Shown here piece by piece: positions 1-14,192 of a stretch of 48,242 bases of DNA. The stretch comes from Candidatus Woesearchaeota archaeon (GTDB lineage Archaea > Nanobdellota > Nanobdellia > Woesearchaeales > CG1-02-33-12). Where the stretch lies: assembly GCA_017609385.1 (NCBI GenBank), contig JAFCEA010000001.1, forward strand, positions 1-48,242, given 5' to 3'. The notes beneath the pieces are model-generated. The model saw nothing but the letters and a program-made list of their open reading frames with translations, made no database searches and had not been told where the DNA came from. Each line of letters begins with the position of its first letter. Position 1 is the first letter of the stretch. A program made the translations under genes and the position numbers.

Positions 1-1549
<1,549 letters not shown>

Positions 1550-1591: not shown

Positions 1592-1752
1592 GGGCCTGTA
1601 GCTCAGCCTGGTAGAGCATCGCCCTTGCAAGGCGGGGGCCTCGGGTTCGAACAGCTGGTTACGCTCAGCTGGCACGCAAGGGCGGGCATTGCTTAACAGC
1701 AAGCCCACCGAGCTCGCTGACGCTCGCCAGGTCGGAAGTCCCGACGGGTCCA
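1592..1752 (+). tRNA. tRNA-Ala (anticodon UGC) interrupted by a T-loop intron
   Basis: Hand-folded cloverleaf. Acceptor GGGCCTG/CGGGTCC includes the G3:U70 Ala identity pair. D arm GCTC-AGCCTGGTA-GAGC. Anticodon arm TCGCC-CTTGCAA-GGCGG (TGC). T stem TCGGG (1641-1645) / CCCGA (1740-1744) with loop TTCGAA...T split by the insert. Discriminator A; no encoded CCA. It sits in the usual 16S-23S spacer position. Confidence 0.85.
1652..1738 (+). other. Non-canonical tRNA intron in the T-loop (about position 59/60), ~87 nt and GC-rich
   Basis: Removing 1652-1738 restores a 7-nt TTCGAAT T-loop and a complete cloverleaf. The insert is ~64% G+C by hand count and has internal hairpins (GGGC-A-TTGCT-TAAC-AGCAA-GCCC; CGAGC-TCGCTGAC-GCTCG). 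The junction is ambiguous by 1 nt. Confidence 0.7.
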
Positions 1753-1845: not shown

Positions 1846-1864
1846 CCATGCATAGGCAAAGTAC
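1846..1864 (+). other. 5' strand of the 23S rRNA processing stem
   Basis: CCATGCATAGGCAAAGTAC is the perfect reverse complement of 4777-4795, as expected for the archaeal pre-rRNA processing helix that flanks the 23S. Confidence 0.8.
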
Positions 1865-4776
1865 AATTAAACTATTAGGTGGATGACTTGGCTCAAGATG
1901 CTGATGAAGGATGTGACAAGCTACACTATGCTCTGGCGAGGCGCACGTAGCCTTTGAACCAGAGATTTCCTAATGTGACTTCACTTTAAATCCGTAAGGA
2001 TGGGGAACGCAGGATCTTAGTACCTGCAGGAAAAGAAATCAATTGAGATGCTGTTAGTAAGAGCGACTGAAAACAGCAAAAGGCAAACTGAATCCTTTTT
2101 TGAAAGAAAAAGGAGATGTGGTGTTGTAAGACCGCTTTTTATCTTCTTTCGGGAACTCAAATTTTTCTGGAAAGAAAAGCTATAGAGGGTGATAGCCCCG
2201 TAGAGGCAACTGAAAAAGATTTTAGCGTGTTCTTGAGTACTGTTTACTGGAAACTAAGCAGGAATTTAGGAGACATCAACTTCTAACCTTAAATACATTT
2301 TGAGTCCGATAGAGCACAGTACCGTGAGGGAAAGTTGAAAAGAACCCTTAACAGGGAGTTAAAAGATCCTGAAACCTAATAGTAATAGAGGGGTAGGGCT
2401 CTTAGGAGTTCTACCGTGCGTTTCGAATAACGTGCCAGGGAGTTTATCTAAGTGGCAAGGATAATTCTTTAAAGGAGTATCCTAAGGGAAACCAACAGGC
2501 TCGCAGCTTGCAAGGAGCGAGGTATTAACATGCCTGAAGTCACTTGGATATGACCCGAAGCCGGGCGATCTAACCCTAGGTAAGGTGAAGTGAGGATAAA
2601 ACCTCGTGGAGGCCTGAAGAGGTTCTACGTGCAAGTGTTCTTCTAACCTGGGGCTAGGGGTGAAAAGCCAATCGAGCCCGGTGATAGCTGGTTCCTACTG
2701 AAGTTGGCCGTAGTCAAGTTTCAGATAAGACAACTAGAATGGTAGAGCTACGGATTGGGAATTTAGGCCTCGAAAGGGGTCGGTTCGCTGTCCAACTCCA
2801 AATGTTTTGGTGTCATAGATTCTGGAAAACGGCGGCTCGTCGTAAGGGTGAGTCACGAGAGGGGAACAACCCAGACTATAGTTAAGGTCCTAAAGTATCA
2901 ACTAAGTGTTAAAGGGTGAAGAATGTCCATAGCCTAAGACAGCGAGGAGGTTGGCTTAGAAGCAGCCATCCTTTAAAAAGTGTGTAACAACTTACTTGTC
3001 AAGGTTATGGGTCTCGAAGATTGACAGGGCTAAGTTGATCACCGATACTATAGACAACCGAAAGGTTAGTGGTAGGTAGGCATTCTGATAGGGAAGAAGC
3101 ATTTCTGTAAAGAAATGTTGACCTGTTAGGAAAGAAAATCCTGGTAAAAGTAAGATCATAGCAGAGTGAGAATCTCTGCCATCGAAGGGGCAAGGGTTCC
3201 TTGACAATATAGTTTAGTCAAGGGTTAGTTGATCCTAACCAAGCCCATAAATTGGGCAAGGGGAAAGGGAAAACGGTTAATATTCCGTTACTATTCAAAT
3301 ATTCGGCAACGAAAGTTTGATTACTGACACTTTGGGTTAGGCTAATACAAATCGTCGTTTGTATCAACTGGAATAAATCAATGGAGTATTACAATGATGA
3401 GAAGTTGATTAAATCCAGGATGAGTGGTTCTTATGAATCATTTAGCTTATACCTTGAGTCCGTGAAAAAGGAATCAAAACAGATTTTGAATAACCATACC
3501 CAGAACCAGCACAGGTGCCCCTAGGTGAGAAACCTAAGATGTGAAGGAGTAATCTAATTGAGGGAATTCGGCAAATTGGCCCTGTACCTTTGGTATAAGG
3601 GGTCCCTGCAATTGTGTTTGCATAAATGCGATTGCAGGGCGCAGTAACAAAGGCGGTTCGACTGTTTAACAAAAACTTAACTGACTGCTAGCCTGTAAAG
3701 GTGTGTATAGTCAGTGACGTCTGCCCAGTGTCAGTACCTAAAACCTCTTTTCAAGGAGGCTAAGGGCTGGTAAACGGCGGGGGTAACTATAACTCTCTTA
3801 AGGTAGCTTAATGCCTTGCCGATTGAATGTCGGCTTGCATGAATGGCGTAACGAAATCGCCACTGTCCCCAATTAGAATCCTCTGAACATTCTTTCCTGG
3901 TGCAAAAGCCAGGGATCTCCAGTGGGAAGTAAAGACCCCGTGAAACTTTACTGTAGCCTGTAGCTGTGATGTGAGTTTTGATGTGCAGTGTAGGTGGAAG
4001 TTGCTAAAGCTTGAACGCTAGTTTAAGTGTAGACGACAATGAGACACCACCCTTTAGAATTTACGTCACTAACTGAGAAATCAGGACAATTATAGGTGGA
4101 CAGTTTGGCTGGGATGGCACTCTACTGAAATGATATCAGTAGAGCCCAATGGTTGGCTCAAACGGGTCAGAAACATTTTGCGAAGATACAACAGCGCAAA
4201 AGCTGAGCATCCGTTGTAGAGTGTAAGAGTAAAAGCCAGCCTGACTGGATTTCAACTAATAAGAAATCCAGAGAAGAAATTTTGGTCTAGCGAACCCCTA
4301 TGCCTCCTTGATGGGGGCTAGGGATGACAGAAAAGTTACTCCGGGGATAACAGAGTTGTAGCGCCCGAGAGTTCATATCGACGGCGCTGCTTGCTACATC
4401 GATGTCGGCTCTTCCTATCCCGGCCGTGCAGAAGCGGCCAAGGGTGGGGGTGTTCACCCATTAAAAGGGATCGTGAGCTGGGTTCAGAACGCTGTGAGGC
4501 AGTTTGTTTAATATCTACTGGAGATGTAGGATATCTGAAGGGAAGGATCCCCTAGTACGAGAGGAACGGGGGTTCGGGGCCTCTGGTCCACCGGTTATCT
4601 GACAAGGTAAGCCGGGCAGCTACGCCCTAAGGGATAAGTGCTGAAAGCATCTAAGCACGAAGCCCGCCCTGAAAAGAGATATCTTAGGACTCGGGCAAAA
4701 GACCCGTTTAATGGGACCGGTGTGTAAGTGCCAAGCTTCGGCGAGGCATTCAGCACGCGGTTCCCAATAGTCCATA
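1865..4776 (+). rRNA. rrl: 23S (LSU) rRNA
   Basis: 5' GGTGGATGACTTGGCTCAAGATGCTGATGAAGG (~1879 onward). Peptidyl-transferase region GGGGATAACAG ~4343. Sarcin-ricin loop AGTACGAGAGGAAC 4554-4567. Helix 1 pairs ACTATTAGG (1871-1879) with CCCAATAGT (4763-4771). Length ~2.9 kb, so no large insertion. Mature ends are approximate. Confidence 0.93.
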
Positions 4777-4795
4777 GTACTTTGCCTATGCATGG
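4777..4795 (+). other. 3' strand of the 23S rRNA processing stem
   Basis: GTACTTTGCCTATGCATGG is the perfect 19-nt complement of 1846-1864. Confidence 0.8.
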
Positions 4796-8650: not shown

Positions 8651-8959
8651 ATGGAGTATGTATATGCTGCAATGTTGATCCACAAAGCTGGAGGAAAAAT
8701 AGATGAAGCAACAGTAACAAAAGTATTAGAAGCTGCTGGAGCAAAACCAGATTCAGCAAGAGTCAAGGCCGTGGTGGCAGCCTTTGATGGAGTTGACATT
8801 GAGAAAGTAATCAAAGAATCATCTGTTATGCAGGTAGCAGCACCAGCTGCTGGTGAAGCAAAAGCAGAAGAGAAAAAGGAAGAAAAACCCAAAGCCAAAG
8901 AAGAAGAGAAGAAAAGCCAGGAACAGGCAGCTGCTGGTCTAGGTTCGTTGTTTGGTTGA
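8651..8959 (+). CDS. rpl12: 50S ribosomal stalk protein P1 (L12)
   Basis: MEYVYAAMLIHKAGG N-terminus and the canonical acidic tail ending GLGSLFG. GGAGGT at 8638-8643 supports the ATG at 8651 rather than the TTG at 8636. Confidence 0.93.
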   Translation: MEYVYAAMLIHKAGGKIDEATVTKVLEAAGAKPDSARVKAVVAAFDGVDIEKVIKESSVMQVAAPAAGEAKAEEKKEEKPKAKEEEKKSQEQAAAGLGSLFG

Positions 8960-8992
8960 TTAGTTTTATTTTTAATTATTAAGTGAGAGGAT

Positions 8993-9889
8993 ATGCCAGA
9001 AAAGAAGAATAAGAAGGAATTATTAAAAAATCTTAGCAAATGCAGAAAAGAAATAATTGAGTTAAGATTGAGTTTAAACCAGTTAGACAACCAAAAAGAA
9101 GAATGTTTTAAGAAAAAAGAAAAAGCAAGCAATGATCTTTCTAATTTTTTTAAAAAGATTAAAGAATTGAAAAATAGCAGAAATAACCTAACAAAAAAAG
9201 TTAAGGAACTAAAGTCTAAAAGGGAAAACTACAATAAGCTGATTAAGGAAAAAATTAGTGAGATAAAAAACGTTAACAATGAGAAAAAAGAGATTATAGA
9301 GAAGTTCAACCTAAAAGAGGATCCTTCTCAAATTAAACGTGATATTGAAAAACTTGAGATGAGAATAGAGACTGAAGTAATGCCTTTTGATAAAGAACAG
9401 AAGCTGATGAAAGAGATAAAGCTTAAGAAAAAGAAGTATAAGGAAGCAGAAAGAGTAAGCGAGGTCTGGAAAAAATCTGACTCTCTTTCAAAGGAAATTG
9501 ACAAGCTGAGAAAAGAGGCTGATGAAACCCATAAAAAAATTAGAAGTGATGCTGATGAAAGTCAGAAAAAGCATGATGAGATGATAAAACTATTAAAGGG
9601 TGTTGATGGTCTAAAAAAAGAGGAAGAGCTTGCTTATAAGAAATTCTTTGAATTTAAAAAGAAGTTGGCAGATGTTAATGATTTATTAAAGAAAAAACTG
9701 GTTGAAATAAATGAGATAAACAAAAAACTAGGATTATCCAGAGAAAAGGCAAAAAAAGAGAAAAAACAAAGACAGGAAAAAATAATAAAAGAAAAAGAGG
9801 AAAAGGTTGAAGATAAGATTAAGAAGAGGAAGAAACTTACAACAGAAGATCTTCTTGTATTCCAGAGATTAGATAACAAGGAGAAATAA
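8993..9889 (+). CDS. Lys/Glu-rich coiled-coil protein (resembles the archaeal COG1340-type coiled-coil family)
   Basis: 298 aa with heptad-like charged repeats throughout and no enzymatic motif. Family assignment is tentative. Confidence 0.6.
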   Translation: MPEKKNKKELLKNLSKCRKEIIELRLSLNQLDNQKEECFKKKEKASNDLSNFFKKIKELKNSRNNLTKKVKELKSKRENYNKLIKEKISEIKNVNNEKKEIIEKFNLKEDPSQIKRDIEKLEMRIETEVMPFDKEQKLMKEIKLKKKKYKEAERVSEVWKKSDSLSKEIDKLRKEADETHKKIRSDADESQKKHDEMIKLLKGVDGLKKEEELAYKKFFEFKKKLADVNDLLKKKLVEINEINKKLGLSREKAKKEKKQRQEKIIKEKEEKVEDKIKKRKKLTTEDLLVFQRLDNKEK

Positions 9890-10680: not shown

Positions 10681-10862
10681 CTTACCTTAATAACATACTC
10701 TCCCTTTACTTTTATTCCAATTTTTTCAGCAATCATTGACTTATCAGCATCAAGTACATTTATCCTGCCCTTCCAGTTTGTGGTAAACTGATTACCCTTG
10801 CATATGGGGCAACTGTCTCCCTTCACAAAAATCCTGCATTTTTTACAAACTTTTTTAGGCAT
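10677..10862 (-). CDS. spt4: Transcription elongation factor Spt4 (RpoE'')
   Basis: 61 aa with the zinc ribbon CKKC...CPIC and the conserved position between rpo7 and S24e. Confidence 0.88.
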   Translation of the reverse strand: MPKKVCKKCRIFVKGDSCPICKGNQFTTNWKGRINVLDADKSMIAEKIGIKVKGEYVIKVR

Positions 10863-10864
10863 TT

Positions 10865-11455
10865 TTATTTCCTTGATTTCTTTTTAGACTTTTTTTCAGT
10901 TTTTTTAGCTGTCTTTTTTTGCTCATACTTTTCTTCTATCCACTCTATTTTTCCAAGGCCAGTCTGCCTCATTGTCAAACCAAGCTTTGGGTTTGTGGGG
11001 TCTTTATAGCTCGTGGCAATTATTCTTGCCCTGCACTTATCACCTATTTTCAAAACTTTTCTTGATTCCTTGCCAGCAAGGGTCTTCTCCTTATTGAATG
11101 AAACAAAATCATTCATTGTTTGTGAGATATGGATCATGCCCTCTATTGGACCAATGCTGATAAAAGCTCCAAAGTCTGCAATGTCCTTTATCCTTCCAAG
11201 AACAACCTCCTGCATTTCTGGCTTGAAAGTTATTACCTCAAACTCTGTTTCATAGTATGATGCTCCATCTCCGGGGATTATAATCCCTTCTCCTATGTTG
11301 TCCAATCTTGATACATCTATTACAATGCCCAGTTCCTTTGAAATATAGCCCTCATACTTTTTTTTGATTCTCTCAAGCATTGCATCCTCTAGCTTAAGCC
11401 CAAAAAGATGGGGTGGAACCCTTATATGGTCTTTTAATTGTGTTTTATAGAACAT
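10865..11455 (-). CDS. rpoE: DNA-directed RNA polymerase subunit Rpo7 (E')
   Basis: N-terminal Rpb7-like domain plus S1 domain (GRIKDIADFGAFISIGPIEGMIHISQ) in the conserved cluster. Has a basic C-terminal tail. Confidence 0.9.
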   Translation of the reverse strand: MFYKTQLKDHIRVPPHLFGLKLEDAMLERIKKKYEGYISKELGIVIDVSRLDNIGEGIIIPGDGASYYETEFEVITFKPEMQEVVLGRIKDIADFGAFISIGPIEGMIHISQTMNDFVSFNKEKTLAGKESRKVLKIGDKCRARIIATSYKDPTNPKLGLTMRQTGLGKIEWIEEKYEQKKTAKKTEKKSKKKSRK

Positions 11456-11894: not shown

Positions 11895-13124
11895 TTATTT
11901 ATATCTTTTGAAAACTAAAACCGCATTGTGGCCTCCAAAGCCAAAAGAATTAGACATTGCTATATCAACATCTTTTTTTCTCGATTCATTTGGTACATAA
12001 TCAAGGTCACACTCTGGATCCTTAAATTCATAGTTTATTGTTGGAGGAATTATATTATTTTTGATTGTCAAGATTGAGATAATTGCTTCTAGACCACCAG
12101 CTGCTCCTATAAGATGTCCTGTCATTGATTTTGTTGAGCTTACTGGAATTTTCTTGGCATTAGAAAACACTTTTTTTATTGCTAGTGTTTCTATTCTGTC
12201 ATTTAAAGGGGTTGATGTTCCATGTGCATTAATATAATCAATCTGTTCTGGTTCTAATTTTGAACTTAATAAGGCTCCTCGCATTGCATCTGCTGCACCC
12301 TCACCATTTTTATCAGGAGCAGCTAATTTATAAGCATCGCAATTACAGCTATAACCAACAATTTCTGCATATATTCCTGCATTTCTTTCTAATGCATGTT
12401 GTTGTTCTTCTAGTACCAAAATTCCTGCGCCTTCTCCTAAAACAAAACCACTTCTTTTTTTATCAAAGGGTCTTGATGCTTTTTTTGGCTCATCATTGTA
12501 TTCTTTAGTTATTGCCATCATATTTGTAAATGCTGCTACTCCTACTGGTACAATAGGCGCTTCTGTGCCCCCTGTGATTATTAGATCTGCTTCTCCATGT
12601 TTTATTTTTAAATAGGATTCACCAATTGCATTAGCACCAGAAGCACATGCTGTTGAAACAGAAAAATTAGAGCCTTTAAGAGAATATTTTATTGCTATAA
12701 GTGCTGGTGCTGCATTTGACATTAGTTTTGGTATTGTCTTTGGGTTAACTTTATCAGGACCTTTTTCATATAAAATATTTTGTTGCTTTATTGTTGTTTT
12801 AAGACCACCAATTGCTGTTCCAATGATTACACCTATTTTTTTTCCTGATGGGATTTCTAGATTATTAAGAGCTCGCTCTGTTGCTGCCAAGGCATATTGT
12901 GAAAATAAATCAAGGTCCTTTATTTCTTTTTTGCTTATTTTATAGTGTTCTGGATTAAAGTCTTTTACTTCTGCTGCAATCTTAACCTCAAAATCAGAAC
13001 TATCAAATTTTGTTATTTTATCTACACCAGAAACACCATTAACAAGATTCTCCCAAAATGTATTTATATCGTTACCCAGGGGAGAAATTACACCTAAACC
13101 GGTTACAACCACCCTTCTTTCCAT
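11895..13124 (-). CDS. fabF: Beta-ketoacyl-ACP synthase II (bacterial FabF type)
   Basis: RRVVVTGLGVISPLGN, active-site STACASG, HGTSTPLND, GHLIGAAGGLE and NSFGFGGHNAVLVFK: a full-length KAS II pattern. Confidence 0.9.
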   Translation of the reverse strand: MERRVVVTGLGVISPLGNDINTFWENLVNGVSGVDKITKFDSSDFEVKIAAEVKDFNPEHYKISKKEIKDLDLFSQYALAATERALNNLEIPSGKKIGVIIGTAIGGLKTTIKQQNILYEKGPDKVNPKTIPKLMSNAAPALIAIKYSLKGSNFSVSTACASGANAIGESYLKIKHGEADLIITGGTEAPIVPVGVAAFTNMMAITKEYNDEPKKASRPFDKKRSGFVLGEGAGILVLEEQQHALERNAGIYAEIVGYSCNCDAYKLAAPDKNGEGAADAMRGALLSSKLEPEQIDYINAHGTSTPLNDRIETLAIKKVFSNAKKIPVSSTKSMTGHLIGAAGGLEAIISILTIKNNIIPPTINYEFKDPECDLDYVPNESRKKDVDIAMSNSFGFGGHNAVLVFKRYK

Positions 13125-13176: not shown

Positions 13177-14192
13177 ATGGACAATGTAAGAATTGCTGGA
13201 ATTGGTTCTTATCTTCCTAAAAAGATTGTTACTAATAAAGATTTAGAAAATATAGTTAAGAATTATGATTATAGTAAATATGATGATTTTTCTGAGTGGG
13301 TAATTAGAGTAACAGGCATTGAAGAAAGACACTATGCTGATGGAAATGAAACAATAGAAGAAATGGGTGCTGAAGCTTCTAAAAAAGCATTAGAGGACGC
13401 TAATTTGAAAGCAATTGATATTGACTTAATAATTCTAAATACATTCACACCAGGGGCATTAATACCAACTTCAGCTATTGAAGTAGGGCATTTAATTGGT
13501 AATGATAACATACCAGCTATTACAATAAACCAGGCATGTTCTGGTTTTGTTTATGCAGTAGAGAGCGCGTACCATCATATAAGAAGTGGAAAATACAACA
13601 ATGTCTTAGTTGTTGCAAGTGAAAAATTATCAAGTATTATTGATTATAGCAACCCAAAAACAGCTATTTTGTTTGGGGATGGTGCTGGAGCAGCTGTTTT
13701 GCAAAGGAGTAATAAAAAAGGCATCTTGGGGATACCCTACATTGGCGGAAAATATTCTTCTAAACATATTAATGTAAAAAATACAGGTGTAGATGTAAAA
13801 GATATTCTAACAAAGGCTGAAAAAAGTATGTTAAAAAGGAATACCTCAAAATGAGTGGTGGTCCACAGGTATTAAGACAAGCTGTTAATGCTATGGTTCA
13901 GTCTGCTAGAATTGCACTTAGAAGAAGCAATTTAGAAATAAAGGACATTGACTGGCTTTGCCCTCATCAAGCAAATAAAAGAATAATAGACGGTACTGCT
14001 AAATCTAAATACTTGCGTATGTCAAAAAAAACTCTTATTACAATAGAAGAAGATGGTAATGTATCTGGTGCTTCTAATATTATAACCCTTGATAAAAGTA
14101 TAAAACAAGGTAAGGTTAAAAGAGGAGATAAAATTTTAATAACTGCTGTTGGTGGGGGTTATACAATGGGTGCTTTTGTTTTTGAATATTAA
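13177..14192 (+). pseudogene. fabH: Beta-ketoacyl-ACP synthase III (FabH-like) split into two ORFs (13177-13854 and 13851-14192) by a -1 frame change
   Basis: ORF1 carries the Cys motif NQACSGFVYA. ORF2 carries HQAN and GNVSGAS (the His and Asn of the triad). The ORF2 frame is already open from 13821 and reads KKYVKKEYLKMSGGPQV. The frames meet at GAAAAAAG (13819-13826). Confidence 0.75.

What the first reader, a model, noticed from the sequence alone, without database searches (positions are those of the whole stretch)
1592..1752. tRNA-Ala(UGC) in the rRNA spacer carries an ~87-nt GC-rich intron in the T-loop instead of the canonical 37/38 site
All cloverleaf elements, including the G3:U70 pair and the TGC anticodon loop, are intact and uninterrupted. 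However, the T stem strands TCGGG (1641-1645) and CCCGA (1740-1744) are separated by TTCGAA + 87 nt + T. Removing 1652-1738 gives a canonical TTCGAAT loop. The insert is ~64% G+C by hand count in a roughly one-third-GC genome and forms stable hairpins. Non-canonical intron positions are established for some archaea, especially Thermoproteales, and need a splicing endonuclease with relaxed BHB recognition. Here the intron sits in the tRNA that must also be released from the pre-rRNA, so rRNA and tRNA processing are coupled to its removal.
Basis: partly seen in the sequence, partly recalled or inferred. Interest (0 to 1): 0.62.

Follow-up and report, generated by a model that had tools for sequence, protein, structure and literature searches.

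The report
T-loop intron in spacer tRNA-Ala
The alanine tRNA gene between the 16S and 23S rRNA genes of this small archaeon (Woesearchaeota) carries a genuine 87-base intron in its T-loop, and that intron belongs to a conserved GC-rich family found in many tRNA genes of related archaea, one member of which appears as an excised RNA circle in an environmental transcriptome.

Summary
Exons 1592-1651 and 1739-1752 form a complete tRNA-Ala(UGC), interrupted between T-loop nucleotides 59 and 60 by an 87-nt insert of 64.4% G+C.

It is a bulge-helix-bulge (BHB) intron:
- The T stem, a 4-bp helix (UUCG/CGGA) and two 3-nt bulges place the cuts exactly at 1651|1652 and 1738|1739.
- ARAGORN calls the spliced sequence tRNA-Ala.
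- Other organisms carry the identical tRNA without the insert.
- An orthologous operon keeps the intron, with pairing-preserving changes only.

About 75 nt of it is a conserved three-hairpin module, with 65 copies in the loci fetched, mostly Woesearchaeota/Nanoarchaeota genome bins and metagenome contigs. Nearly all lie in T-loop introns at this same site, in at least nine tRNA species, or just 3' of tRNA genes.

For one family member, a groundwater metatranscriptome contig is the exact circular permutation of the intron, with no other real coverage of that genome.

Position 59/60 and intron families shared between tRNAs are already known in archaea, so this is a new variant of a known kind. 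The need for a relaxed endonuclease and the coupling to rRNA processing remain unshown. Splicing of this particular gene was not observed directly.

The parts
1..1547 (+). 16S rRNA, cut at the 5' end of the window. Context: the first gene of the operon that holds the tRNA.
   Evidence: Rfam SSU_rRNA_archaea, 1387 bits, model positions 29-1478.
1592..1651 (+). tRNA-Ala(UGC) exon 1: acceptor 5' strand, D arm, anticodon arm, variable loop, T-stem 5' strand and T-loop nucleotides 54-59 (TTCGAA).
   Evidence: Read directly from the sequence. ARAGORN calls tRNA-Ala(tgc) after splicing. Metatranscriptome contigs X26 and X27 match with 0 mismatches and continue straight into exon 2.
1652..1738 (+). 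BHB intron at tRNA position 59/60: 87 nt, 64.4% G+C.
   Evidence: The orthologue in L091 differs at 4 positions, all pairing-preserving or in a loop.
1739..1752 (+). tRNA-Ala exon 2: T60, T-stem 3' strand CCCGA, acceptor 3' strand CGGGTCC (with U70) and discriminator A73. No CCA is encoded.
1646..1649 (+). 5' strand of the BHB central helix H (UUCG, T-loop nucleotides 54-57). It pairs with 1733-1736.
   Evidence: Pairs are U-A, U.G, C-G, G-C. Across 30 distinct family introns, UUCA always faces UGAA/UGGA (14 of 14), and UUCG faces CGAA/CGGA (9) or UGAA (7). Fisher p = 0.0009, but the sequences are not independent.
1650..1652 (+). 5' bulge AA|C. The predicted cut lies between 1651 and 1652.
   Evidence: BHB geometry read from the sequence. 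The same AA|N bulge occurs in 29 of the 30 distinct family introns (one has AC|A).
1733..1736 (+). 3' strand of central helix H (CGGA).
   Evidence: L091 has CGAA here, changing the G.U pair to A-U.
1737..1739 (+). 3' bulge AG|U. The predicted cut lies between 1738 and 1739.
1652..1729 (+). Conserved GC-rich module. P1 hairpin: 1652-1657 with 1666-1671. Invariant linker GCACGCA: 1672-1678. P2 hairpin: about 1680-1709. P3: GCUCGC 1712-1717 with GCUCGC 1722-1727.
   Evidence: Covariance model R1 scores 72 bits, E = 1.7e-15. It is the only copy in the window. The family structure is 97.9% paired, with compensatory changes in 12 of 15 pairs and 0 of 500 shuffles as good.
1726..1732 (+). 3' strand of the inner helix h' (GCCAG + G + U). 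It pairs with A1653 and CUGGU 1655-1659 across one G.G mismatch. This pairing overlaps P1 and P3, so the splicing fold and the module fold are alternatives.
   Evidence: Constrained fold and the fold of the insert alone. That the two folds are real alternatives is my inference.
703..805 (+). Second intron-like insertion in the same operon: 103 nt, 31% G+C, in the 16S 790-loop region (about E. coli 795). The border is ambiguous by 3 nt because of a TAC repeat.
   Evidence: Absent from the 97%-identical 16S of L091. The BHB was read by hand: H = UUAG/CUAA, bulges AU|A and CU|A, and an adjacent helix of about 11 bp.
1855..4786 (+). 23S rRNA (context).
   Evidence: Rfam LSU_rRNA_archaea, 2563.8 bits. 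The flanks form a long processing stem.

Best explanation
Positions 1652-1738 are a bulge-helix-bulge (BHB) intron inserted between nucleotides 59 and 60 of the tRNA-Ala(UGC) gene in the 16S-23S spacer of a Woesearchaeota genome.

In the precursor, T-loop bases UUCG pair with CGGA near the 3' end of the intron. With the T stem on one side and an intron-internal helix on the other, this presents two 3-nt bulges. The archaeal splicing endonuclease EndA cuts both bulges. An RtcB-type ligase then joins the exons to restore the TTCGAAT loop, and probably circularises the intron.

The intron body is one copy of a conserved three-hairpin module of about 75 nt. This module has spread among T-loop introns and 3' trailers of many tRNA genes in a subset of Woesearchaeota. 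TTCGAA is self-complementary and nearly universal in tRNAs, so any intron ending in YGRAAG can form the required central helix in any tRNA. That makes this site a portable, phenotypically silent niche.

Shown here: the gene anatomy, the BHB motif, the family and its covariation, the empty-site homologues, and an intron circle for one relative.

Inferred: the enzymes involved, splicing of this particular gene, and how the module spreads.
For: 1. Complete cloverleaf with G3:U70, A73 and anticodon UGC once 1652-1738 is removed. ARAGORN then calls tRNA-Ala.

2. BHB geometry: h = T stem (5 bp), H = 4 bp, bulges AA|C and AG|U, h' = A-U, G.G, then 5 bp.

3. Empty sites: metatranscriptome contigs X26 and X27 carry exon 1 with 0 mismatches joined directly to TCCCGACGGGTCCA, in different flanks.

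4. The orthologous operon L091 has identical exons. Its intron has 4 changes: two are compensatory in P2, one lies in a loop, and one turns G.U into A-U in H. The spacers diverge much more.

5. Thirty distinct introns at the same site in tRNA-Gly, Ser, Arg, Val, Pro, Asp, Ala and others show a covarying H helix.

6. Groundwater metatranscriptome X41 has a 152-nt contig equal to L099 2669-2698 followed by 2578-2698. This is the exact circular permutation of that locus's 121-nt T-loop intron, with junction GAAAG|ACAAATGG. Over 12.8 kb of L099, that run otherwise gives only one 170-nt contig at about 96% identity (10774-10943) and a few 17-25-nt fragments.

7. Model R1 finds 65 module copies in 40 low-GC archaeal loci and none in 5 other low-GC loci (four bacterial, one Bathyarchaeota). 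At least 58 of the 65 lie in T-loop introns or tRNA trailers.

8. Position 59/60 is a documented non-canonical intron site (PMC4090602).
Against: - No RNA data cover this gene's own splice junction or its own intron circle.
- The helix h' is imperfect and competes with the module hairpins P1 and P3.
- The cloverleaf-plus-BHB fold (-65.5 kcal/mol) is less stable in silico than the unconstrained minimum (-79.7 kcal/mol).
- No EndA or RtcB gene is in the window, so the enzyme type is unknown.
- The circle evidence is a single assembled contig from a relative, not raw reads.
- The module family was first collected with a fixed sequence pattern, which inflates its apparent sequence conservation.
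Confidence: 0.87

Rival explanations
1. The module is mainly a selfish mobile element, moving at the DNA or RNA level. It colonises pre-existing short T-loop introns and tRNA trailers because it is spliced or trimmed away there. It does nothing for the cell. This refines the main explanation rather than excluding it.
For: - Orthologous or similar tRNAs carry 18-32-nt mini-introns without a module at the same site.
- Some introns hold two or more modules in tandem, along with truncated P1 halves.
- Copies sit in tRNA 3' trailers, some of them decaying.
- One intergenic copy (L154) is flanked by a 19-20-nt direct repeat.
Against: - Only one weak copy was found in 839 kb of other Woesearchaeal DNA, so the module does not scatter like a typical MITE.
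- There are no terminal inverted repeats and no associated transposase.
- It is absent from viral contigs.
- Linker and stems are strongly conserved, with compensatory changes. This also fits a selected RNA.
Confidence: 0.45
2. The module is a functional small RNA. tRNA genes serve as its expression and processing hosts, much as the box C/D RNA sits in the archaeal tRNA-Trp intron. It is released as a stable circle from introns, or as a linear piece from trailers.
For: - The three-hairpin fold is conserved and has an invariant single-stranded linker.
- In metatranscriptome X41 the intron circle is the only full-length, near-identical match over 12.8 kb of the L099 locus, which implies stability.
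- The module occurs in two different processing contexts, intron and trailer.
- The linker GCUGGCAC is complementary to 16S GUGCCAGC (about positions 515-522). The duplex is -21.3 kcal/mol, and 2 of 200 shuffles do as well.
Against: - No C/D or H/ACA boxes are present, and there is no Rfam match.
- The 16S complementarity is only 8 nt. It is borderline after correction for six tests.
- P2 is replaced wholesale by at least four unrelated hairpins.
- Many copies are truncated.
Confidence: 0.15
3. The gene is a pseudogene: a tRNA-Ala disrupted by a repeat insertion and never spliced.
For: - ARAGORN and the Rfam tRNA model fail on the unspliced sequence.
- The in-silico minimum-energy fold is not a cloverleaf.
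Against: - The exons are intact and identical to uninterrupted tRNAs found elsewhere.
- The exons show 0 differences from L091, while the spacers have diverged.
- The BHB is maintained by covariation across 30 introns.
- An intron circle was found for a family member.
- From general knowledge: the spacer tRNA-Ala is normally the functional UGC isoacceptor in archaeal rRNA operons.
Confidence: 0.04
4. The insert is an assembly chimera or artefact.
For: Repeated modules could in principle mislead assemblers.
Against: - The independent metagenome contig L091 has the same arrangement.
- Contig X36 spans 1589-1691 with 0 mismatches.
- Contig X25 spans 1588-1656 and continues into a related module.
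Confidence: 0.01

Closest known systems
Non-canonical BHB tRNA introns of Archaea (positions such as 53/54, 56/57 and 59/60, best known in Thermoproteales and Nanoarchaeota)
   Same: - The intron lies outside the anticodon loop.
- Its borders are defined by a bulge-helix-bulge motif.
- Removal restores a standard tRNA.
- Position 59/60 is listed explicitly among known sites (PMC4090602).
   Different: - The host is a low-GC, presumably mesophilic Woesearchaeota genome bin.
- The tRNA sits in the rRNA spacer.
- The motif is close to the strict hBHBh' form rather than a clearly relaxed one.
Transposed tRNA intron families of Thermoproteales (Fujishima et al. 2010, as summarised in PMC4033280 and PMC4090602)
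   Same: Near-identical intron sequences occur in tRNA genes for different amino acids. This implies spread of introns between tRNA genes by an unknown mechanism.
   Different: - Every copy found inside a tRNA body here sits at one site (59/60), not at many positions.
- The shared part is a discrete structured module of about 75 nt.
- The module can be tandemly repeated, swaps its middle hairpin, and also occurs in 3' trailers.
Box C/D RNA in the tRNA-Trp intron of Euryarchaeota, and circular tRNA-intron RNAs
   Same: A structured RNA is housed in a BHB tRNA intron, released by EndA and circularised.
   Different: - There are no C/D boxes and no Rfam match.
- No guide target has been established.
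- The intron is in the T-loop, not at 37/38.
GC-rich palindromic repeat elements tolerated inside genes of AT-rich genomes (for example yeast mitochondrial GC clusters and Rickettsia palindromic elements). Comparison from general knowledge.
   Same: A short, GC-rich, hairpin-forming repeat family sits in an AT-rich genome at sites where it does no harm.
   Different: - The harmlessness here comes from RNA splicing or trimming.
- Copies are almost confined to tRNA genes.

Membership tests
Archaeal BHB (EndA-dependent) tRNA intron | Two 3-nt bulges separated by a 4-bp helix, with the cuts placed symmetrically in the bulges. | tested here: met
   H = UUCG (1646-1649) with CGGA (1733-1736). Bulges are AA|C and AG|U. 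The same geometry occurs in 30 distinct family introns.
Archaeal BHB (EndA-dependent) tRNA intron | Flanking helices h and h' (strict hBHBh' form). | tested here: inconclusive
   h is the 5-bp T stem and is met. h' is A-U, then a G.G mismatch, then 5 bp, and it competes with module hairpins P1 and P3. In relatives h' is often offset by 1-2 nt.
Archaeal BHB (EndA-dependent) tRNA intron | Removing the insert gives a canonical, functional-looking tRNA. | tested here: met
   ARAGORN calls tRNA-Ala(tgc) on the spliced sequence. An identical uninterrupted tRNA is present in contigs X26 and X27.
Archaeal BHB (EndA-dependent) tRNA intron | Excision at the predicted sites in vivo, with a circular intron and ligated exons. 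| tested here: inconclusive
   Not observed for the window's own gene. Observed for the family member in L099, as a 152-nt circularly permuted contig in metatranscriptome X41.
Archaeal BHB (EndA-dependent) tRNA intron | The genome encodes the splicing endonuclease EndA and an RtcB ligase. | not testable with these tools
   None of the 50 window ORFs scanned against Pfam matches a tRNA intron endonuclease or RtcB. A motif scan of the fetched loci found nothing. The literature reports alpha4 EndA with an L3 loop in DPANN (PMC5829648).
tRNA-Ala(UGC) | G3:U70 pair, A73 discriminator and UGC anticodon in a 7-nt loop. | tested here: met
   G1594:T1749, A1752, and CTTGCAA at 1624-1630. ARAGORN assigns tgc.
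Transposed intron family (similar introns in different tRNA species) | The same intron sequence occurs in tRNA genes of different identity. | tested here: met
   The module is found in T-loop introns of tRNA-Ala, Gly, Ser, Arg, Val, Pro and others.
Box C/D or H/ACA guide RNA housed in an intron | C (RUGAUGA) and D (CUGA) boxes, or an ACA box with a pseudouridylation pocket. | tested here: not met
   No RUGAUGA is present. CUGA is not conserved across copies. There is no Rfam match at E up to 10 other than noise.
Self-splicing group I or group II intron | A catalytic core of several hundred nucleotides that matches the Rfam models. | tested here: not met
   The insert is only 87 nt and has no Rfam hit.
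MITE or IS-derived repeat | Terminal inverted repeats, target-site duplications and dispersed genomic copies. | tested here: inconclusive
   No terminal inverted repeats were seen. One intergenic copy has a 19-20-nt flanking direct repeat. Copies are nearly confined to tRNA genes, with one weak hit in 839 kb elsewhere.

The most novel reading that the evidence does not exclude
The roughly 75-nt three-hairpin module may be a distinct genetic element hosted by tRNA genes, not intron filler. It could be a mobile element specialised for T-loop BHB introns and tRNA trailers of Woesearchaeota. It could instead be a family of stable small circular RNAs with a trans-acting role, for example through its invariant GCUGGCAC linker. 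In either case tRNA genes would supply its promoter and processing.
Probability: 0.35. Interest if true: 0.75.

Novelty: new variant of a known kind. Interest (0 to 1): 0.55.

Why it matters
**Annotation.** Standard tRNA finders miss this gene and its relatives. ARAGORN found 0 tRNAs in the window, and the Rfam tRNA hit was mis-paired. This helps explain why DPANN genome bins appear to lack full tRNA sets, a problem noted in PMC5829648. A model of the T-loop intron would recover them.

**Biology.** The result shows how one near-universal, self-complementary tRNA sequence (TTCGAA) can serve as a portable docking site for BHB introns. It also provides a sequence-defined intron family with many snapshots: mini-intron, single module, tandem modules, trailer copies and an intergenic copy with flanking repeats. 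That makes the long-open question of how archaeal tRNA introns spread directly approachable.

**Small RNAs.** The circle found in a metatranscriptome suggests that these introns persist as small circular RNAs in nature.

Tried and rejected
- **Unspliced tRNA detection.** ARAGORN and the Rfam tRNA model on the unspliced sequence are uninformative, because neither models T-loop introns.
- **Thermodynamics.** The unconstrained fold does not give the cloverleaf. The insert's z-score is only -1.3.
- **RNA evidence for this gene.** No run holds its intron as RNA. Only exon matches from other organisms, DNA-like contigs and one contig from a run labelled metatranscriptomic ChIP-Seq that reads 5 nt into a related intron were found. 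A second search for circles, using L037, found none. One read-laying run was lost to a filter.
- **EndA.** It is not in the window. A catalytic-motif scan of all fetched loci found nothing.
- **Kae1-anchored synteny.** This was meant to collect orthologous spacer tRNAs. None of the 80 loci contained tRNA-Ala.
- **Alternative pairings within the module.** GCACGC with either GCUCGC repeat, and the P1 loop UUGC with the tail GCAA, have mixed support. They were left out in favour of P3.
- **Guide-RNA idea.** Complementarity to rRNA is borderline.
- **Viral origin.** No module was found in IMG/VR.
- **Literature.** Searches by topic and by the module's sequence found no description of this family. 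The library is incomplete.

Full report
**1. The observation**

The window opens inside an archaeal 16S rRNA (1-1547), followed by a 23S rRNA (1855-4786). The genes beyond are 31-36% G+C. Their products are typical archaeal housekeeping proteins: Kae1, L1, P0, S24e, Rpo7, Tyw1, NrdD and DnaK/DnaJ/GrpE. The Kae1 protein is 84-87% identical to those of Woesearchaeota genome bins, so the organism is a Woesearchaeota (DPANN) archaeon.

- acceptor stem 1592-1598 with 1745-1751, including G3:U70, and discriminator A1752;
- D arm, and anticodon arm with loop CTTGCAA;
- T stem TCGGG (1641-1645) with CCCGA (1740-1744);
- between the T-stem strands, TTCGAA, an 87-nt insert (1652-1738) and T1739.

The insert is 64.4% G+C. 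ARAGORN finds no tRNA in the raw window. The Rfam tRNA model gives only a mis-paired local hit. Once the insert is removed, ARAGORN calls tRNA-Ala(tgc).

**2. It is a BHB intron**

In the archaeal motif, each strand runs helix, then the 4-bp central helix, then a 3-nt bulge that is cut after its second base. Here the T stem is the outer helix. UUCG (1646-1649) pairs with CGGA (1733-1736). The bulges are AA|C and AG|U. The inner helix is A1653-U1732, a G.G mismatch, then CUGGU/GCCAG. The predicted cuts fall exactly at 1651|1652 and 1738|1739, which yields the loop TTCGAAT.

Three independent comparisons fix these borders.
- Two metatranscriptomes hold contigs with exon 1 (0 mismatches) running straight into TCCCGACGGGTCCA, in unrelated flanks. 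These are uninterrupted copies of the same tRNA in other organisms.
- A metagenome contig (L091) carries the orthologous 16S-tRNA-23S region. Its exons are identical. Its intron differs at four positions: two are a compensatory swap in a hairpin, one is in a loop, and one turns the G.U pair of the central helix into A-U. The spacers on both sides have diverged far more.
- Across 30 distinct introns at this site, a T-loop reading UUCA always faces UGAA or UGGA (14 of 14). UUCG faces CGAA or CGGA (9) or UGAA (7).

**3. The insert is one copy of a family**

A 34-nt piece of the insert matched two other Nanoarchaeota bins. A looser pattern, and then a covariance model, found 65 copies in 40 low-GC archaeal loci. 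None were found in five other low-GC loci (four bacterial, one Bathyarchaeota), and only one in the window.

Each copy has four parts:
- a 6-bp hairpin P1 (CAGCUK...MAGCUG);
- an invariant linker GCACGCA;
- a variable hairpin P2 that comes in at least four unrelated versions;
- two GCUCGC repeats that can pair as P3.

On the family alignment, 97.9% of cells are paired and 12 of 15 pairs show compensatory changes. None of 500 shuffles reaches this. The alignment was fitted to the model, which favours the structure, and the seed pattern inflates the apparent sequence conservation.

By position, about 47 copies lie in T-loop introns at 59/60 of tRNA-Ala, Gly, Ser, Arg, Val, Pro and others. Some introns hold two or more copies in tandem. 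Eleven copies begin 2-4 nt after a tRNA's discriminator base. Seven lie elsewhere or at contig ends.

In 839 kb of other Woesearchaeal DNA there is one weak copy. It is intergenic and flanked by a 19-20-nt direct repeat. No copy was found in viral contigs.

The same T-loop site also holds 18-32-nt mini-introns without a module, and unrelated inserts in more distant Woesearchaeota. The 59/60 intron is therefore a lineage feature, and the module looks like a later tenant.

**4. RNA evidence**

No run holds this gene's intron as RNA.

For the family member in L099 (intron 2578-2698), a groundwater metatranscriptome has a 152-nt contig made of 2669-2698 followed by 2578-2698. That is the intron (122 nt in that organism) plus 30 nt, which is what a circle gives in a k = 31 assembly. 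The junction is GAAAG|ACAAATGG, exactly at the predicted cuts.

Over 12.8 kb of that locus, the same run otherwise gives only one 170-nt contig at about 96% identity (10774-10943) and a few 17-25-nt fragments. DNA carry-over is therefore unlikely, and the excised intron appears to be a stable circle. This rests on one assembled contig, not raw reads.

**5. How it most likely works**

EndA cuts both bulges, and an RtcB-type ligase joins the exons and closes the intron into a circle. This step is inferred from established archaeal splicing.

TTCGAA is its own reverse complement and is nearly universal in tRNAs. An intron ending in YGRAAG can therefore form the central helix in any tRNA, which explains why a single site is used across isoacceptors.

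The inner helix overlaps P1 and P3, so the splicing fold and the module fold are alternatives. This is my inference.

Whether the module is selfish or useful is open, and the evidence is set out under the rival explanations.

**6. Comparison with what is known**

Position 59/60 is listed among known non-canonical sites (PMC4090602). Intron families shared between tRNA species are known in Thermoproteales (PMC4033280 and PMC4090602). DPANN archaea are reported to have alpha4 EndA with an extra loop, many disrupted tRNA genes and incomplete tRNA predictions (PMC5829648).

I found no description of this module or of a Woesearchaeal T-loop intron family, and Rfam has no match. My verdict is a new variant of a known kind.

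No EndA gene is in the window. The proposed coupling with rRNA processing is untested. The same operon's 16S does carry a 103-nt BHB-like intron that is absent from L091, so EndA probably acts at several places on this transcript.

Noticed in passing
window 703-805 (border ambiguous by 3 nt, TAC repeat): The 16S rRNA gene carries a 103-nt, 31% G+C insertion in the 790-loop region (about E. coli 795). It is absent from the 97%-identical 16S of L091. By hand it forms a BHB-like motif: H = UUAG/CUAA, bulges AU|A and CU|A, and an adjacent helix of about 11 bp. It is probably a recently gained or lost rRNA intron, and it is unrelated in sequence to the tRNA intron.
   Followed up: partly
L154 8927-9039 (- strand), with flanks about 8900-9070: This is an intergenic copy of the module in a 1.3-Mb Nanoarchaeia contig. 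It is flanked by a 19-20-nt direct repeat, GGAGGTAAAAA(A)TGGCACC, that duplicates the ribosome-binding site and start codon of the downstream gene. The repeats are 148 nt apart and the insertion is not in frame. It looks like a target duplication and hints at DNA-level insertion.
   Followed up: partly
L055 7184-7220; L056 (- strand) about 5627; contigs of runs X39 and X41; L131 (- strand) 12441: Mini-introns of 18-32 nt with no module occupy the same 59/60 T-loop site in tRNA-Asp and in Ala- and Ile-like tRNAs. Each is a compact BHB. They suggest that the T-loop intron came first and the GC-rich module was added later.
   Followed up: partly
L034, L037, L081, L084, L031, L066, L092, L094: immediately 3' of tRNA genes: Module copies start 2-4 nt after the discriminator base of tRNAs, in the 3' trailer. 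Several retain the ...GCTTTGAAA tail typical of T-loop introns, and some are truncated. Their origin is unexplained: recombination remnants or a second processing route.
   Followed up: partly
window 1667-1674 versus window 421-430: The invariant module linker GCUGGCAC is perfectly complementary to the universally conserved 16S segment GUGCCAGC (about positions 515-522). The duplex is -21.3 kcal/mol, and 2 of 200 shuffles do as well. This is borderline after multiple testing.
   Followed up: partly
L014, L032, L034, L055, L065, L070, L080, L101 and others: Several genome bins whose records are titled 'uncultured Methanosarcinales archaeon' have 31-35% G+C, carry the Woesearchaeal tRNA introns, and have Kae1 up to 87% identical to the window's. 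They appear to be mislabelled Woesearchaeota.
   Followed up: no
window 13177-13854 and 13851-14192 (+), next to 11895-13124 (-): A FabH-type 3-oxoacyl-ACP synthase III is split into two ORFs overlapping by 4 nt, holding the N-terminal and C-terminal Pfam domains separately. It sits beside a beta-ketoacyl synthase. These are bacterial-type fatty-acid synthesis genes in an archaeon. Either the gene is naturally split or it is frameshifted.
   Followed up: no
L091 4790-4973 (- strand): About 250 nt upstream of the orthologous 16S gene lies another tRNA 3' half. Its T-loop intron has a variant P1 (CAAAUG...CAUUUG) and extra hairpins. The window starts inside the 16S gene, so the equivalent region cannot be seen there.
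   Followed up: no
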